Assembly: GCA_026025075.1 (NCBI GenBank)
Contig: JAPEUI010000008.1
Coordinates: forward strand, 124,001 to 188,000
Origin: Vezdaea acicularis
Taxonomy: Eukaryota
DNA length: 64,000 bases
Reading direction: 5' to 3'
In this document: positions 13,087 to 18,569 of the stretch, in pieces
How the letters are laid out: every line of letters starts with the position of its first letter
Position numbering within the stretch: the stretch's first letter is position 1
Notes under the pieces: model-generated
What the model saw: the letters and a program-made list of their open reading frames with translations, nothing else
Databases searched by the model: none
Told to the model about the DNA's origin: nothing
Made by a program: the position numbers and the translations under genes

Positions 13087-15259
13087 ATGGTAGGATAAGC
13101 CTATCTCCCACAGGTTTTAAGCTGACCACATCTACCATTAGTGTTTTCAGCATGTGGTTCATATTTCCAGATTACTTCTCGTCTTGCTATGCTGCCTGTG
13201 GGGGACGACTGCCCAATTCCCGAATCCAGCAAATGCATCCGCATATACTACAATAAAATCCCCAGCCAATGCCAACATTAGCATTTCCTACAAAGTCCCG
13301 CTCCCTGGAACGTGTACCACTTATTTCCCGACTCAAAAGCAATGGACAGGTTACGTCTCTATACCTCCACTTACTCTAGCTCCGATTCAGCAAAATTATT
13401 CAATCAATACATTCTTTTGGTTCATCGAAGCGCGGGAGTCGCCACAAACGGCTCCATTGACAATATGGCTGAATGGCGGCCCTGGCTCGAGCAGCATGGT
13501 GGGTCTCTTCCAAGAGACAGGTCCCTGTGAGGTCGTAGAGCTTGGTAAAGGACAATATGGCACTATCGCGAGAGACTGGGGCTGGGACCGAAGCTCCAAT
13601 GTTTTGTACATCGATCAACCCAACGAAGTGGGCTTTTCATTTGACGTCCTAACCAACGGCACCATCAATTTTATCAAGAGTCAGATCGATGTTCCGCCAC
13701 AAGGCGTCCCTCCCGGCTCTCCGGGATACACTTTCCTCAATGGTACCTTTAGTTCAAACTCGCCGAAAGCTACATCTAATACGACTGCTATTGCAGCCCA
13801 AGCCATATGGCACATGTTACAAGGCTTTCTAACCGCATTTCCTCAATACAACCCAGGTAACTATCCTAATAGTAATAAAACCGGCGCCGTAGGGATCAAC
13901 CTCTTCGCCGAGTCATATGGTGGTAAGTACGGCCCAATATTTGCCTCCTTCTGGAAGTTGCAAAATTTGCGTCGCCGTAATGGTACTATCCCCTTCAACA
14001 CGACATTTGACATCACTCTCACCTCTCTCGGAATCTTTAACGGATGCGTCGACGACTTGGTCCAGGCAATATACTACCCGGCCATGGCCTCTAATAACTC
14101 CTACGGCATACAAGCTGTGTCTCCAGCTGAGGCAAACGCTATGACAAGTAGCTTCTACATGACCTCTGGTTGCAAAGACATGATCAATCAATGCCGCAAC
14201 CTCGCCGCTTCCGCGGACCCTCATTCGTTCGGCGAAAACACTAATGTATCCTCTCTATGCGCTTCAGCGCAACAAACCTGCCAGGACGACCTCCTGAATC
14301 CCTACCTAGCATCGTCTCGGTCGATCTATGACATTACCCACCCACTCCACGACCCATTTCCGGTTCTCACATACCTATCCTACCTGAACACGGCCTCTTT
14401 TCAATCCGCCATTGGCGTCTCCCTAAATTACACGGAAGACTCTCAAGCTGTTACGACGGCTTTCACCCAGACAGGGGACTACGAGCTTGTGACGCCAATT
14501 CAAGACCTTGTCGCCCTGCTCGCGAGCGGCGTCCGCGTGGCCCTGATATATGGCGACGCGGATTTTATCTGCAACTGGCTTGGCGGCGAAGCCCTCTCCC
14601 TCGCGATTGCCCGTACTGCGCCGGCCCCTTACCCCTCCTTATTCCCAAGCGCGGGTTATGCGGACGTCCTCGTCAACGATACTTATACCGGTGGTGCCGT
14701 ACGACAAGCGGGCAACCTGAGCTTCGCGCGCGTCTACGACGCTGGCCATCTCGTCCCTGCATACCAGCCTGAGACAGCGTTCACGCTCTTCACGCGGATC
14801 ATCGAGGGCACGAGCCTGGCCTCGGGGCAGCTGATCAATAGCAGCACCTTCGTGACGTCTGGCGACCCGCAAGCATACCATCAGAACAAGCCGCCTGCGA
14901 TGCCGAAGGCGACATGTTATCTTCGAGCAGTGCAGCAGACGTGTGAAGATGACCAAAAGGTGATGCTCCAAAATGGGCAGGGTTTCGTGATCAACGACGT
15001 TCTGTATACGAGTTCGAATGGTTGGGCACCGCCAAGTGCAGAGGTGACGAAGTCAGTAGGGACGCCTGGGATGGCGCCGACTGTGACAGGGTCGGCTAAG
15101 GCTGGGAGTAGCAGTCAAAGCAGTATTGCTACAGGCGTTTATGTGGCAACAGGGGCACCTAGGAAGAAAAGCGGGGGTGGGAGTATTGTTTCGGACCTGA
15201 GGTTTGTTTCTTTGTGCACCGTTTTTGCGGTGAGCATTGCGGAGTTCACTTGTTCATGA
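13087..15259 (+). CDS. Secreted serine carboxypeptidase (S10), probable GPI anchor
   Basis: Signal peptide; WLNGGPGSSS, AESYGG (Ser), GDADFICN (Asp), AGHLVP (His); S/T-rich tail with hydrophobic end. The ORF-track start is GTG 13154; the proposed true start is ATG 13087 followed by intron 13090-13150. Confidence 0.9.
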
Positions 15260-15461
15260 GCATAGCGTTGCCATAGCATTCTAATCGGGTTTCGGTTTGC
15301 ATATATGTTATAAGAATAGCTCTATACCAGCGAGGCGTAGGTAATTCGTGTAACGCCTAGGGTGAGGTATAATAGACATACAATTTTAATACAGTACTCT
15401 TCAGAGAAGTTAGCTCTTTGCTCTGAGTGAGAGAGAATTTAGATGGAAATGATGTTGAGTG

Positions 15462-15554
15462 ATTGTCAGATATAGAGCCCGGTCAAGGGCAATTCTCATC
15501 AATGCCAATCGGCTATGCCGACCGTCGTGAGTATTAAAAAAGTTCATCATTTGA
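15462..15554 (-). ncRNA. snR73: Box C/D snoRNA snR73-like (25S Cm2959, yeast numbering)
   Basis: C box ATGATGA (15544-15550), D box CTGA (15466-15469). Guide CTCACGACGGTC (15520-15531) is complementary to LSU GACCGUCGUGAG. D' would be a degenerate CATA. Confidence 0.85.
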
Positions 15555-15712
15555 AAACAAGGAGGATTCTGGGCAAGACAAAGAAGGAGAGTGGGCAAGC
15601 TTACTACCAGCGTTAGACCACCGATAGTTTGGCCGGAAGGTTGGACCTTATCAAAAGTAGGTCAGCTCAATTGCCAGATTGTTTTTGAAGATGCTTAAAG
15701 CCAAAGAGCGTT

Positions 15713-15799
15713 GAGATCAGTGAAGACAGTCTCGTCGTCGCCAAACAGAAGAATGACTTGGACATATGCTTGTCGTTGTACGTCGAGATCATCATTTGG
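15713..15799 (-). ncRNA. snR74: Box C/D snoRNA snR74-like (18S Am28)
   Basis: C box 15789-15795, D box 15717-15720. Guide GACAAGCATATG (15763-15774) is complementary to 18S CAUAUGCUUGUC; the +5 rule from D' CCAA lands on A28. Confidence 0.9.
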
Positions 15800-15949
15800 A
15801 GGTAGCTCTGGGTGTTTGGGCGTGAGGGAGATTTCGTACTTATTGAGAACCCTTGGCGAGACAAATCAAGCCTACAGTAACGTCGATTCTTTTATAAACG
15901 TTAGTGATTTCTCTAGCTAGGAGTACATGTAATCTAGAAACAAAAGCCT

Positions 15950-16040
15950 ATGATCAGAAAATGCATGAATGGTATATAAAAAGTGTTGTCTACATCGGTA
16001 ACCCGAATCAGACTCGTCATCTAAATGGTTCATCACGTAA
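15950..16040 (-). ncRNA. snR75: Box C/D snoRNA snR75-like (25S Gm2288)
   Basis: C box GTGATGA 16030-16036, D' CTGA 16008-16011, D 15954-15957. Guide TTAGATGACGAG is complementary to LSU CUCGUCAUCUAA; a second element CCATTCATGC is complementary to the nearby GCAUGAAUGG. Confidence 0.92.
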
Positions 16041-16190
16041 TGAGACCGAACTCGGAACTAGTCCCCATTACTTACCTTGAAGTGATTAGGAAGGCACCCA
16101 GGTCCTCATCTGCCCAGCTGCTCTCGGTGGTGTTGTCAGCATGACATCCAGATGTGGAAAGCTGCCAAGTCGTTCTGGTAGAGAAATATT

Positions 16191-16301
16191 GGGTTCAGTG
16201 GGCAAGGTTTTCTAGGCCCGCCACAAAAAGGCATATCCATTTCATGAGCAGCCTCAAGCTTTGTTGAGACGTATCGGCGCCCAGTGCCATTCATCATCTA
16301 T
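16191..16301 (-). ncRNA. snR76: Box C/D snoRNA snR76-like (25S Cm2197)
   Basis: C box 16291-16297, D 16195-16198. Guide GCACTGGGC before D' CCGA is complementary to LSU GCCCAGUGC; the +5 position lands on C. Confidence 0.85.
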
Positions 16302-16441
16302 AGATCTGACGGCGGTCGGAAAAAAAGATTTGGAGAATGTTCAACAAATGCGTACCATATGAACTCGTAAGGCCTATAGCTTAGGAGCTAAGTGTCAGCG
16401 ACGTCTCCTATCAGAGTTGAGGTTCAACTGTGTTGATAAGA

Positions 16442-16532
16442 AAGCTCAGATAAGCCATGAAGTATCCGCAAGGACCCGAAGGTCTCGGCCGGTAATTTCC
16501 AGCGTACAAAGTACGAATTGATCATCATTGCT
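16442..16532 (-). ncRNA. snR77: Box C/D snoRNA snR77-like (18S Um578)
   Basis: C box 16522-16528, D 16446-16449, terminal AGC/GCT stem. Guide GCTGGAAATTACCG before D' CCGA pairs with 18S CGGUAAUUCCAGC with a 1-nt bulge. Internal GACC-UUCG-GGUC hairpin. Confidence 0.88.
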
Positions 16533-16678
16533 AGGTGGAAAAATTATAGGAAAGCTCACCTGAGTGACCACCTAACTCCACCAGATCCCTAGGAAGCCCA
16601 ATAATCGTCATCTACAGACTTCATGTCAGCCGCCAAAACTTCCACTTTCATTAGATATGAACTAGGAAGGTGTGTTTG

Positions 16679-16762
16679 CTGTTCAGACTGACGTGTGCAA
16701 ATGAGTTTCATTCCCTTAGGTCAAAGACTCTAGTTTTGCGGTTTAAACAAATCATCAAGATG
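16679..16762 (-). ncRNA. snR78: Box C/D snoRNA snR78-like (25S Um2421), with a second snR72-type guide (Am876)
   Basis: C box TTGATGA 16752-16758. D' TTGA has guide AAACTAGAGTC vs LSU GACUCUAGUUU. D box 16683-16686 is preceded by ATTTGCACACGTCAG vs LSU CUGACGUGCAAAU. Confidence 0.88.
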
Positions 16763-17041
16763 TGGAAGGAAGTTGAAAAAAAGAGTGGCAACCTGAACTT
16801 ACTGTGTCTGGAGTAGAAGGTTGTGAGTTGAAGGAAGATAAATTTCTGTTTGGTACAAAATTCGTCAGTACGTTTCCCTTATTGGGGGTGTGCGCTAACG
16901 AGGCGAGGCACGCCAGGCCTGTTCGGGAGATGGGCAGTGGCCTTGGCGCACATGCAATAGAAGTGAAAAGGGTTCGCCGCCATCCTCGGAAGCATCTTCG
17001 TTTTCTATCTCGGATCAAGCAGGACCAGGAGCATTCTCAAC

Positions 17042-17054
17042 CGGGGCAGATCGG
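17042..17054. promoter_or_regulatory. CGG-N7-CGG (reverse complement CCG-N7-CCG), AcuK/AcuM-type gluconeogenic element overlapping a SYGGRG CreA-type site
   Basis: cgg ggcagat cgg lies about 370 nt upstream of the FBP1 ATG; CCGGGG at 17041-17046. Confidence 0.5.
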
Positions 17055-17424
17055 AAGCAACATTTCTGCACTACCGCATTCCTCGGAACAAAGGATCTAG
17101 CACGAGCCAGCTGGATTAGCGACGGGATGGAGCGTGCCCCGCAATTGCTAAAAGTCCTCTTCCTCGGCCATGTGAGGGGCGGACTTCATATAACGTCACG
17201 CGGCATGCAGGCACGAGGTCGCTAACACCAGGTTCACCCTGCATGCTCACGTAAAGTTTTCTCGTTGATTGGAATAAAAGCTATTCCGTCCGTCCTTTCT
17301 CCTACTTGACTCAATCTTCTGCTTTTATCATTGTCTGCTTAAGACTGTTCTTCTCTTCCAGTGGTCTCGTTCTTCCTCTCACGGGACCAATTGAGCTATC
17401 CGCAGCTTGCCAAATACCTTGACC

Positions 17425-18569
17425 ATGGCCTCCGTTAAGGGACTAACAAACCAAATCCTTGAGTTGACCGAGGACGCCACGCAACAAAATGGAGGAGAGA
17501 AGATCAACACGGACATCATTACTCTTACACGCTTCCTCACAGAAGAACAAACTAAGCATAAGGAGGCAACGGGAGACTTCACGTAAGCATTAGCCCTTAA
17601 ATGACATGTGAAAGTGTGCCGGCTAACTCTTCTGAACTCAGATTGCTCTGCCATGCTCTCCAATTCTCCTTCAAAAGCATCGCCTATTATATTCGCCGAG
17701 CAACGCTGATCAACCTCACCGGACTTGCAGGCTCCTCAAATATTACAGGCGACGATCAAAAGAAGTTAGACGTGATTGGGAATGATCTCTTCATTGCCTC
17801 TATGAGAGGGTCTGGCAAGTGCCGGATATTAGTCTCTGAGGAAGAAGATGAAGCCATCATCTTCCACGAAAGCCCGAAAGCGCGTTATGCCGTGGTATGC
17901 GACCCCATTGACGGCAGCTCTAATCTCGATGCCGGTGTATCAGTGGGAACAATATTCGGTATTTTCAAGCTAAAAGAAGGAGCGGAAGGAAGAAAAGAAG
18001 ACCTGCTGCTTCCTGGCACCGAACTCGTTGCCAGCGGCTTCACCATGTACGGGGCATCAGCCCAACTAGTTTTGACAATGAAAGGCGGGACCGTCAATGG
18101 GTTCACCATGGACAACGCCCTTGGAGAATTCATCTTAACACATCCGAATATGCGGCTTCCAAGGAAGCGCGCCATCTACTCTGTGAATGAGGGGAATACC
18201 CTATACTGGGATGCACCCACGAAGGAATATTTTGACAGCTTGAAGTATCCAAGCGAGAAAGATGGAAAGCCATATAGCGCTCGTTATATTGGCAGCATGG
18301 TTGCCGATGCCTACCGGACGCTACTATATGGGGGCATTTTTGCATATCCAGCCGACAAGAAGAGCCCCAAGGGAAAGCTGCGTATTCTTTACGAATGCGC
18401 TCCTATGGCTATGGTCATGGAGAACGCTGGCGGACAGGCAGTTGACAGTAATATGAACCGCATGCTGTCGGTCGTGCCAGAACACATCCACGATCGATCT
18501 GGCATCTACATGGGCAGTTACGATGAAGTGGAGAAGGTAGTCGCCACGTACAAAAAGCACGCGAAATAG
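17425..18569 (+). CDS. FBP1: Fructose-1,6-bisphosphatase
   Basis: ATG 17425, intron 17583-17641. Motifs DIITLTRFL, GDDQKKLDVIGN, DPIDGSSNLD, ARYIGSMVAD, GKLRILYEC. Confidence 0.97.

What the first reader, a model, noticed from the sequence alone, without database searches (positions are those of the whole stretch)
15400..16850. Hidden non-coding host gene with six intron-encoded C/D snoRNAs
The apparent intergenic gap between the carboxypeptidase and FBP1 is a regular array with a period of about 230-260 nt on the minus strand. Each unit is donor, then C box (RTGATGA; TTGATGA in the first unit), rRNA-complementary guide, CTGA, RCTRAC branch point and acceptor, with exons of only about 18-52 nt. 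Seen directly: boxes, splice signals and guides. Established knowledge: the guides and their order match the yeast snR78-77-76-75-74-73(-72) cluster, which is polycistronic in S. cerevisiae. The one-snoRNA-per-intron form is, from memory, the arrangement in other fungi. The system is therefore known in kind, but ORF-based annotation would miss it.
Basis: partly seen in the sequence, partly recalled or inferred. Interest (0 to 1): 0.8.

Follow-up and report, generated by a model that had tools for sequence, protein, structure and literature searches.

The report
Known fungal intron-encoded snoRNA cluster
The gap between the carboxypeptidase and FBPase genes holds a non-coding gene whose six introns each carry one rRNA-methylation guide RNA, a real but well-described arrangement in filamentous ascomycetes.

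Summary
On the minus strand, 15399-16802, six units of the same build follow one another: donor, C box, guide, CTGA D box, branch point, acceptor. The C boxes lie 230-261 nt apart and the inferred exons are 18-52 nt.

- **Rfam:** three units pass the gathering scores: snR75, Afu_513 and Afu_300.
- **Chance:** a composite motif hits only these six places in the 64 kb, both strands, against 0.135 expected.
- **Guides:** those next to D'/D are complementary to eukaryotic rDNA taken from public contigs. The sites sit at the offsets published for N. crassa snR76, snR75, snR78 and snR74.
- **Unit 1:** it is the fused snR78/72 double guide, so snR72 is not a seventh unit.
- **Coding potential:** the spliced RNA has no ORF longer than 43 aa.

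Luo 2013 describes this cluster as intronic in all Euascomycetes, Aspergillus included. Liu 2009 confirmed the spliced, UHG-like host by RT-PCR in N. crassa. Jöchl 2008 cloned five of these snoRNAs in A. fumigatus beside fbp1, the same neighbour as here. Splicing and expression in this organism are inferred, not shown. Interest is low.

The parts
16803..16860 (-). Exon 1 of the non-coding host gene; the 5' end (transcription start) is unknown and 16860 is a placeholder
   Evidence: Pyrimidine-rich stretch ending at donor GTAAGT 16802. No promoter was tested. Inferred.
16612..16802 (-). Intron 1 (191 nt): GTAAGT donor, GCTGAC branch point (A at 16626), CTGTAG acceptor
16683..16758 (-). Unit 1 box C/D snoRNA, fused snR78/72 type. 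C box TTGATGA 16758-16752, D' TTGA, D box CTGA 16686-16683. Two guides.
   Evidence: The D' guide AAACTAGAGTC pairs with LSU GACTCTAGTTT. The target U lies +133 from the snR75 target G in L068, the same offset as N. crassa Um2383 from Gm2250. The D guide ACGTCAGT pairs with ACTGACGTG in 29 of 97 LSU loci, with target A; the snR72 D target is described in PMC5824354. No Rfam hit.
16560..16611 (-). Exon 2 (52 nt)
   Evidence: boundaries inferred from splice signals
16374..16559 (-). Intron 2 (186 nt): GTGAGC donor, GCTGAC branch point (A at 16395).
16444..16533 (-). Unit 2 box C/D snoRNA, Rfam Afu_300, snR77 orthologue. C box 16528-16522, D' CCGA, D box 16449-16446.
   Evidence: Afu_300 68.2 bits against gathering 40. 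The D' guide is complementary to CGGTAATT then CCAGC of the SSU 530-loop region, with one extra A in the guide. Target is the U of CGGU.
16356..16373 (-). Exon 3 (18 nt with the last AG; 25 or 32 nt with the earlier AGs)
16118..16355 (-). Intron 3 (238 nt): GTACGC donor, GCTGAC branch point (A at 16136), GAGCAG acceptor
16193..16301 (-). Unit 3 box C/D snoRNA, Rfam Afu_513, snR76 orthologue. C box 16297-16291, D' CCGA, D box 16198-16195.
   Evidence: Afu_513 74.4 bits against gathering 48. The D' guide GGCACTGGGCG pairs with TGCCCAGTGCT in 63 of 97 LSU loci. With D' read as CCGA the target C lies -91 from the snR75 G in L068; this is my own count from the adjacent registers -92 and -93 printed. 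N. crassa Cm2159 lies -91 from Gm2250.
16076..16117 (-). Exon 4 (42 nt)
15872..16075 (-). Intron 4 (204 nt): GTAAGT donor, ACTAAC branch point (A at 15901), CTGTAG acceptor
15952..16038 (-). Unit 4 box C/D snoRNA, Rfam snR75. C box GTGATGA 16036-16030, D' CTGA, D box 15957-15954.
   Evidence: snR75 81.6 bits against gathering 40, full model 1-88. The D' guide TTAGATGACGAG pairs with CTCGTCATCTAA of eukaryotic LSU rRNA, with target G.
15840..15871 (-). Exon 5 (32 nt)
15647..15839 (-). Intron 5 (193 nt): GTACGA donor, GCTGAC branch point (A at 15662), GATAAG acceptor
15717..15795 (-). Unit 5 box C/D snoRNA, snR74/SNORD27 type. C box 15795-15789, degenerate D' CCAA, D box 15720-15717.
   Evidence: The D' guide GACAAGCATATG pairs with CATATGCTTGTC at the 5' end of SSU rRNA. 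In L054 the target A is SSU position 28, matching N. crassa 18S-Am28, snR74. The Rfam SNORD27 hit is only 19.8 bits, below gathering.
15605..15646 (-). Exon 6 (42 nt)
15399..15604 (-). Intron 6 (about 206 nt): GTAAGC donor, GCTAAC branch point (A at 15410), acceptor AG ending at 15399 or 15397
15466..15550 (-). Unit 6 box C/D snoRNA, snR73/U35 type. C box 15550-15544, degenerate D' CATA, C' TGATGA near 15501, D box 15469-15466.
   Evidence: The D' guide CTCACGACGGTC pairs with GACCGTCGTGAG in 30 of 97 LSU loci. The target C lies +678 from the snR75 G in L068, against +667 in N. crassa (Cm2917 from Gm2250). The snoZ161_228 hit is 26.4 bits, below gathering 45.
15300..15398 (-). Terminal exon; the 3' end is unknown and 15300 is a placeholder. 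It converges on the 3' end of the carboxypeptidase gene.
   Evidence: Sequence after the last acceptor; the Peptidase_S10 ORF ends at 15259 on the plus strand. Inferred.

Best explanation
This is the orthologue of fungal 'snoRNA gene cluster I' in its Pezizomycotina form: a Pol II-transcribed, non-protein-coding host gene like the mammalian UHG/gas5 genes.

The gene lies on the minus strand. Its six introns each hold one box C/D snoRNA, in the order snR78/72 (double guide), snR77, snR76, snR75, snR74, snR73.

The proposed mechanism is as follows.
1. The precursor is spliced.
2. Each excised lariat is debranched and trimmed by exonucleases down to the snoRNP, which has assembled on the C/D boxes.
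3. The short exons are joined into a non-coding RNA of a few hundred nt.
4. The mature snoRNPs, with fibrillarin, 2'-O-methylate the rRNA nucleotide paired to the fifth guide position upstream of D' or D.

The predicted targets, in the numbering of the papers read, are LSU U2421 and A876 (unit 1), SSU U578 (unit 2), LSU C2197 (unit 3), LSU G2288 (unit 4), SSU A28 (unit 5) and LSU C2959 (unit 6).

Shown here: the boxes, the splice signals, the family matches, the guide complementarity and the lack of an ORF. Inferred: transcription, splicing, processing and methylation in this organism.
For: 1. **Rfam.** snR75 81.6 bits, Afu_513 74.4 bits and Afu_300 68.2 bits all pass gathering. They are the only 3 gathering hits in the 64 kb.

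2. **Uniform build.** Six units have the same architecture. The composite motif gives 6 hits, all here, against a simulated mean of 0.135. The D box begins 57-61 nt before the branch A in 6 of 6 units. The donor lies 32-59 nt before TGATGA, in line with the mainly 41-60 nt reported for N. crassa intronic snoRNAs (PMC2780460).

3. **Guide complementarity.** I tested against eukaryotic rDNA from public contigs. L068 scores 2739.9 bits for LSU_rRNA_eukarya, and L054 carries an LSU plus the 5' end of an SSU.
   - Unit 4: 12 bp.
   - Unit 1 D': 11 bp, target U at +133.
   - Unit 3 D': 9 Watson-Crick pairs plus G-U pairs, target C at -91.
   - Unit 6 D': 12 bp, target C at +678.
   - Unit 5 D': 12 bp, target A at SSU position 28.
   
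   The first three offsets equal those between the N. crassa sites Gm2250, Um2383 and Cm2159, and position 28 equals 18S-Am28 (Table 1 of PMC2780460).

4. **Unit 1 has both guides.** It carries an snR78-type D' guide and an snR72-type D guide. This is as described for Nc CD5 and for all Euascomycetes.

5. **No coding potential.** The spliced RNA, with generous ends (583 nt), has a longest ATG ORF of 43 aa.

6. **Synteny.** An FBPase gene lies beside the array. The A. fumigatus cluster of cloned snoRNAs Afu-40, -188, -300, -513 and -515 lies between Afu4g11310 and Afu4g11320, and Afu4g11310 is fbp1.

7. **Literature.** The cluster is intronic in Euascomycetes. The order and the length of about 1.5 kb are conserved across Ascomycota. 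RT-PCR showed spliced host RNAs in N. crassa.
Against: - There are no expression or junction data for this organism, and no genome is held, so its own rRNA could not be used.
- Units 1, 5 and 6 have no Rfam hit above gathering; unit 1 has none at all.
- Two guides are short or interrupted. Unit 2 D' makes 8 bp, then a one-base bulge, then 5 bp. Unit 1 D makes 9 bp (8 in L068), then a two-base bulge, then 5 bp.
- My shuffle control shows that one anchored 9-bp match to a conserved rRNA site is not rare. Between 9 and 34 of 200 shuffled 12-mers reached at least 5 loci. The guide evidence therefore rests on length and on agreement of position, not on any single match.
- Terminal stems next to the C and D boxes are weak or absent.
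- Donors of introns 2, 3, 5 and 6 depart from GTAAGT, and several acceptors are ambiguous.
- The offsets for unit 6 (+678 against +667) and for the unit 1 D target (-1456 in L068 against -1394) do not match exactly, so these two sites are assigned by sequence context only.
Confidence: 0.93

Rival explanations
1. The six snoRNAs are real but are released from an unspliced polycistronic precursor by endonuclease cuts (RNase III/Rnt1 type) and exonuclease trimming, as in S. cerevisiae snR72-78. The splice-like signals would then be relics or coincidence.
For: The same cluster is processed this way in S. cerevisiae. This is stated in PMC3596301, and the title of Qu et al. 1999 appears in the reference list seen. 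Four of the six donors are not the GTAAGT consensus. Jöchl 2008 listed the A. fumigatus members as 'intergenic'.
Against: All 6 units have a donor, a CTRAC branch point and an AG in the right order, with near-constant spacing from D box to branch point. The composite motif occurs nowhere else in the window. The five spacers show no significant folding (z from -1.45 to +0.09). Their MFE structures hold only one AGNN tetraloop, on a 3-bp stem. PMC3596301 reports that all Euascomycete clusters are intronic, and N. crassa splicing was confirmed by RT-PCR.
Confidence: 0.04
2. The units are independently transcribed snoRNA genes, or the host is a protein-coding gene whose short exons encode a peptide.
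For: Some N. crassa cluster members have putative promoters of their own (cluster V). Short ORFs cannot be ruled out as translated.
Against: Only about 150-165 nt separate one D box from the next C box, and that space is filled by splice signals. The longest ATG ORF is 43 aa in the spliced RNA and 53 aa in the unspliced RNA. The published host genes are described as lacking coding potential.
Confidence: 0.02
3. The array is a chance arrangement of short motifs in an intergenic region.
For: The boxes are short, and I wrote the composite pattern after seeing the units.
Against: Three Rfam hits lie far above gathering, with E-values from 8e-11 to 4.6e-15 for the whole window. Guides of 11-12 bp fall on known methylation sites. 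The locus is syntenic with the cloned A. fumigatus cluster.
Confidence: 0.01

Closest known systems
Fungal snoRNA gene cluster I in Euascomycetes/Pezizomycotina (Luo et al. 2013, PMC3596301; Canzler et al. 2018, PMC5824354)
   Same: The order is the same: snR78/72, snR77, snR76, snR75, snR74, snR73. There is one snoRNA per intron, the exons are short and lack an ORF, the first unit is the fused snR78/72, and the total length is about 1.4 kb against the reported ~1.5 kb.
   Different: Nothing of substance. I could not compare exon sizes with their Figure 1, because figures are not held.
Aspergillus fumigatus chromosome 4 cluster Afu-40, -188, -300, -513, -515 between Afu4g11310 (fbp1) and Afu4g11320 (Jöchl et al. 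2008, PMC2377427)
   Same: Units 2 and 3 match the Rfam families built on Afu-300 and Afu-513. An FBPase gene is the neighbour in both. The one-base bulge in the unit 2 guide is also in the Afu_300 consensus.
   Different: That paper cloned five snoRNAs, called them intergenic and left Afu-300, Afu-40 and Afu-515 without targets. Six units are seen here, each in an intron with an assignable target. I did not check what Afu4g11320 encodes.
Neurospora crassa cluster I: CD5, CD24, CD12, CD7, CD21, CD31 (Liu et al. 2009, PMC2780460)
   Same: The six snoRNA types, the double-guide CD5, and which box (D' or D) each guide sits beside are the same. The host is UHG-like with short ORFs only, and splicing was confirmed by RT-PCR.
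   Different: The N. crassa snR77 homologue is listed with a perfect 13-bp guide, whereas here the guide has an extra A. N. crassa shows exon skipping, which could not be tested here.
S. cerevisiae snR72-snR78 polycistron
   Same: The guides and the order are the same.
   Different: In yeast the cluster has seven separate snoRNAs, no introns, and is processed from an unspliced transcript. Here six are intronic and snR72 and snR78 are fused.
Mammalian non-coding snoRNA host genes (UHG, gas5)
   Same: They follow the one-snoRNA-per-intron rule, have exons without coding potential, and place the snoRNA at a fixed distance upstream of the branch point (the last point is recalled from Hirose and Steitz 2001, not read here).
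   Different: The snoRNA sets are unrelated, the genes are not orthologous, and fungal introns and exons are far shorter.

Membership tests
Box C/D methylation-guide snoRNA | C box RUGAUGA near the 5' end and D box CUGA near the 3' end | tested here: met
   6 of 6 units have both. Unit 1 has U in place of R. TGATGA to CTGA spans 75-102 nt.
Box C/D methylation-guide snoRNA | A guide of about 10 nt or more, complementary to rRNA and ending 1-2 nt before D' or D, with the target opposite the fifth position | tested here: met
   Units 1 (D'), 3, 4, 5 and 6 have guides of 10-12 bp in the right register. Unit 1 D has 9 bp and unit 2 D' has 8 bp plus 5 bp across a bulge. The rDNA came from other eukaryotes, not from this organism.
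Box C/D methylation-guide snoRNA | Short terminal stem bringing the C and D boxes together | tested here: inconclusive
   The nine-nt flanks show no clear complementary stem in any unit. I recall that this is common in intronic snoRNAs.
Box C/D methylation-guide snoRNA | Stable small RNA bound by fibrillarin/Nop56/Nop58/Snu13, with methylation at the predicted site | not testable with these tools
   No expression data are available. The A. fumigatus orthologues were cloned as cDNAs.
Rfam snR75 (RF01185), Afu_513 (RF01514), Afu_300 (RF01509) | Score at or above the curated gathering score | tested here: met
   81.6 against 40, 74.4 against 48 and 68.2 against 40, all full-length.
Rfam families for snR74/SNORD27 and snR73/Z161 type (units 5, 6), and any family for unit 1 | Score at or above the gathering score | tested here: not met
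   SNORD27 scored 19.8 against 52 and snoZ161_228 scored 26.4 against 45. Unit 1 had no match at E up to 10. These three units are assigned by guide and position, not by Rfam membership.
Fungal snoRNA cluster I, Euascomycete form | Order snR78/72-77-76-75-74-73 on one strand within about 1.5 kb | tested here: met
   The order follows from the guides and Rfam hits. From the first C box to the last D box is 16758-15466, 1.29 kb, and the introns span 1.40 kb. The published description was read.
Fungal snoRNA cluster I, Euascomycete form | First unit is a double guide combining snR78 (D') and snR72 (D) | tested here: met
   the description is.
Intron-encoded snoRNAs in a non-coding (UHG-like) host gene | Each snoRNA is flanked by a donor, a branch point and an acceptor, one per intron | tested here: met
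   6 of 6 at the sequence level. The exact acceptors are ambiguous in introns 2, 3, 4 and 6.
Intron-encoded snoRNAs in a non-coding (UHG-like) host gene | The spliced host RNA exists and has no long ORF | tested here: inconclusive
   The ORF part is met, with a longest ORF of 43 aa. Whether the spliced RNA exists cannot be tested here.
S. cerevisiae-type Rnt1-processed polycistron | AGNN-capped stem-loops in the spacers between snoRNAs | tested here: not met
   In the MFE folds of the 5 spacers there is one AGTT loop on a 3-bp stem and no other AGNN loop; z-scores run from -1.45 to +0.09. This used MFE structures only.

The most novel reading that the evidence does not exclude
The snR77 orthologue (unit 2, Rfam Afu_300) may differ in function from other fungi. 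Its D' guide has an extra A that breaks the 13-bp duplex listed for N. crassa into 8 + 5 bp, and the same extra A is in the Afu_300 family consensus. Its D-side guide has a 9-bp anchored complement (TAAGCCATG) to the 5' domain of 18S in 46 of 52 SSU loci, pointing at a G near position 48. If this is real, the Aspergillus-type lineage would have weakened or bulge-tolerant guidance of the decoding-centre Um578 and would have gained a new 18S Gm site.
Probability: 0.08. Interest if true: 0.3.

Novelty: already known. Interest (0 to 1): 0.12.

Why it matters
The main value is for annotation. ORF-based gene calling leaves this 1.5-kb stretch empty, yet it encodes six snoRNAs predicted to guide seven rRNA methylations. 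Some of these lie in functionally central regions, such as the 18S 530-loop region and the LSU core.

For biology it adds one more instance of a conserved ascomycete locus. That locus is already used as a model for how introns were lost, and how polycistronic processing arose, in budding yeasts. It opens no new question.

Tried and rejected
- **Own genome.** None is held for this window, so the test 'guides complementary to this organism's rRNA' could not be run. I used eukaryotic rDNA instead: 97 LSU loci from metagenome contigs and 52 SSU loci that sit as contaminant contigs in prokaryote assemblies.
- **Extending metagenome contigs to reach the SSU.** Those records are not held.
- **Best-score shuffle control for guides.** It did not discriminate, because shuffled guides reached similar best scores somewhere among the diverse loci. 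A stricter count of loci sharing an anchored 9-bp Watson-Crick match still gave 9-34 of 200 shuffles with at least 5 loci. I therefore do not claim significance for any single 9-bp match. This includes the unit 2 D-side match to 18S.
- **Second (D-side) guides of units 3, 5 and 6.** I found no convincing rRNA target. At most 5 of 97 LSU loci and 1 of 52 SSU loci had an anchored 9-bp match. Many loci are partial, and 5.8S and the snRNAs were not available.
- **Earlier notes of this scan.** Nothing was found by place or by sequence.
- **Promoter motifs.** PMC4138321 reports no shared RP/snoRNA motif for A. fumigatus, so I ran no promoter test.
- **Rnt1-type hairpins in the spacers.** None were found.
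- **Not done.** I built no covariance model and made no alignment with other fungi, because no fungal genome collection is available in these tools.
Full report
**What is in the sequence**

I read 15100-17200 on the minus strand. It shows six consecutive units with the same layout.
- Matches to [AGT]TGATGA begin at 16758, 16528, 16297, 16036, 15795 and 15550, so they are spaced 230, 231, 261, 241 and 245 nt apart. A seventh match at 15502 is the internal C' box of unit 6.
- Each C box is preceded by a GT donor 32-59 nt upstream.
- Each is followed, 75-102 nt later, by a CTGA D box. Then come a CTRAC branch point (GCTGAC four times, ACTAAC once, GCTAAC once) and an AG.
The internal exons are 52, 18, 42, 32 and 42 nt.
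The D box begins 57-61 nt before the branch-point A in all six units.

**Is it more than chance?**

A composite pattern for one whole unit matches six times on the minus strand of the 64-kb window. Every match is at a predicted donor, and there is none on the plus strand. Two hundred first-order Markov simulations gave a mean of 0.135 matches. I wrote the pattern after seeing the units, so the figure flatters the result. It still leaves chance implausible.

**Family matches**

A scan of the whole window against Rfam at gathering thresholds returned exactly three hits, all in this array on the minus strand:

| Unit | Family | Coordinates | Bits |
|---|---|---|---|
| 4 | snR75 | 15952-16038 | 81.6 |
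| 3 | Afu_513 | 16193-16301 | 74.4 |
| 2 | Afu_300 | 16444-16533 | 68.2 |

A permissive scan of 14800-17400 added three sub-threshold hits of the expected kind:
- snoR118 on unit 3 (32.3 bits).
- snoZ161_228 on unit 6 (26.4 bits), aligned through the guide CTCACGACGGTC.
- SNORD27 on unit 5 (19.8 bits), aligned through GACAAGCATATG.

Unit 1 had no hit.

**Guides against rRNA**

No genome is held for the window, so I could not use the organism's own rDNA.

I scanned metagenome contigs for the two rRNA-sense motifs implied by unit 4. Rfam confirms that L068 is eukaryotic LSU rRNA (2739.9 bits). It also confirms that L054 carries an LSU followed by the first 375 nt of an SSU.

In L068 the guides place their targets as follows:
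- **Unit 4 D' guide:** pairs over 12 bp and puts a G at the fifth position.
- **Unit 1 D' guide (AAACTAGAGTC, D' TTGA):** pairs over 11 bp with a U 133 nt downstream of that G.
- **Unit 3 D' guide (GGCACTGGGCG, D' CCGA):** pairs with TGCCCAGTGCT. I place the target C 91 nt upstream; the tool printed the adjacent registers -92 and -93.
- **Unit 6 D' guide (CTCACGACGGTC, D' CATA):** pairs over 12 bp with a C 678 nt downstream.
- **Unit 1 D guide:** pairs with CTGACGTG, with an A at the fifth position. Five more pairs follow a two-base bulge.

Table 1 of Liu et al. 2009 (PMC2780460, passages read) lists these N. crassa sites:
- 26S Gm2250 (snR75)
- Um2383 (snR78)
- Cm2159 (snR76)
- Cm2917 (snR73)
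- Am856 (snR72)
- 18S Am28 (snR74)
- Um575 (snR77)

The offsets +133 and -91 are therefore identical. The offset +678 against +667 is close. The snR72 site cannot be fixed by offset (-1456 against -1394).

For the small subunit:
- L054 shows CATATGCTTGTC with the target A at SSU position 28.
- To reach the 530-loop region I scanned prokaryote genome contigs with a 23-nt string from L054. This gave 52 loci of contaminating eukaryotic SSU.
- 19 of the 22 loci that reach the region read GCAGCCGCGGTAATTCCAGCTCCAATAGCGTATATT.
- The unit 2 guide is complementary to CGGTAATT and then CCAGC, with one extra A in the guide, and it places the U of CGGU at the fifth position.
- The same extra A is in the Afu_300 consensus.

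**Limits of the guide test**

Many loci are partial, so the counts below are lower bounds.

| Guide | Loci with an anchored Watson-Crick match |
|---|---|
| Unit 1 D' | 57 of 97 LSU loci (9 bp) |
| Unit 1 D | 29 of 97 LSU loci (9 bp) |
| Unit 3 D' | 73 of 97 LSU loci (9 bp) |
| Unit 6 D' | 31 of 97 LSU loci (9 bp) |
| Unit 2 D' | 22 of 52 SSU loci (8 bp) |

The 97 of 97 for unit 4 and the 52 of 52 for unit 5 follow from the search patterns themselves.

Shuffled 12-mers reached at least 5 loci in 9-34 of 200 trials. One 9-bp match is therefore weak evidence. The case rests on the 11-12-bp guides and on the agreement of positions.

**Host gene**

Joining the inferred exons, with generous ends, gives a 583-nt RNA whose longest ATG ORF is 43 aa. 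In the unspliced RNA the longest is 53 aa.

The flanks are a Peptidase_S10 ORF (13154-15259, plus strand), which converges on the host gene, and an FBPase ORF (17601-18569, plus strand), which diverges from it.

The five spacers between units show no significant folding and no AGNN-capped long stem. This argues against yeast-style RNase III processing.

**What is known**

- **Luo et al. 2013 (PMC3596301, passages).** They define cluster I as snR78-77-76-75-74-73-72. They state that in Euascomycetes all its snoRNAs are intronic and that a recombined snR78/72 intron is found in all Euascomycetes. Five Aspergillus/Neosartorya species were in their set.
- **Canzler et al. 2018 (PMC5824354, passages).** They state that the order and the length of about 1.5 kb are conserved throughout Ascomycota. 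They give snR72 as a D target and snR78 as a D' target.
- **Liu et al. 2009.** They confirmed spliced, UHG-like host RNAs by RT-PCR in N. crassa.
- **Jöchl et al. 2008 (PMC2377427, passages).** They cloned Afu-40, -188, -300, -513 and -515 from one cluster between Afu4g11310 and Afu4g11320, and called them intergenic. Afu4g11310 is fbp1 (PMC12719309 and PMC4551469, passages). FBPase is the neighbour seen here too.

**Verdict**

The refinement is that snR72 function sits in unit 1 rather than in a seventh unit.

Transcription, splicing and methylation in this organism are inferred by orthology. The system is already in print, for close relatives as well, so interest is low.

The only mildly unusual detail is the bulged guide of the snR77-type unit. 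It probably explains why Afu-300 was listed as an orphan in 2008.

Noticed in passing
window 16485-16505 (-), unit 2 D' guide: The snR77-type guide reads GCTGGAAATTACCG, while eukaryotic SSU reads CGGTAATTCCAGC (19 of 22 loci). The guide therefore has one extra A, giving 8 bp, a bulge, then 5 bp. The Rfam Afu_300 consensus carries the same extra A, whereas N. crassa lists a perfect 13-bp guide. This may be why Jöchl 2008 listed Afu-300 as an orphan.
   Followed up: partly
window 16450-16462 (-), unit 2 D-side guide: A 9-bp anchored complement (TAAGCCATG) to the 5' domain of 18S occurs in 46 of 52 SSU loci and predicts a G target near position 48. The shuffle control (34 of 200) shows that this could be chance. 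The register differs by one base from the Afu_300 consensus.
   Followed up: partly
window 15962-15971 (-), unit 4 D-side element: CCATTCATGC is complementary to LSU rRNA 10 nt downstream of the D' target, but it ends 5 nt before the D box. It therefore cannot direct methylation by the fifth-position rule and looks like accessory pairing next to the target. This idea is recalled from van Nues et al. 2011, which I did not read here.
   Followed up: no
window 16199-16220 (-), unit 3 D-side element: GGCCTAGAAAACCTTGCCCA before the D box is conserved in the Afu_513 consensus and partly in plant snoR118. I found no convincing complement in the LSU or SSU loci (at most 4 of 97 and 1 of 52).
   Followed up: partly
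L055, about 70-5 nt upstream of the pattern match: This metagenome LSU rDNA carries a 65-nt insertion that begins GTAAGT, contains CTAAC and ends CAG, at a place where five other loci are continuous. It looks like a spliceosomal-type intron in rDNA, a thing I recall being reported for some ascomycetes.
   Followed up: no
L098-L149 (genome contigs): At least 52 prokaryote species assemblies, including isolates and MAGs, contain contigs with the 5' end of a eukaryotic 18S rRNA gene. This is likely contamination or mis-binning.
   Followed up: no
window 15259-15400 and 16803-17600: The host gene's last exon converges on the 3' end of the S10 carboxypeptidase gene, about 140 nt apart, so the transcripts may overlap. 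Its first exon shares a divergent intergenic region of about 750 nt with the FBPase gene.
   Followed up: no
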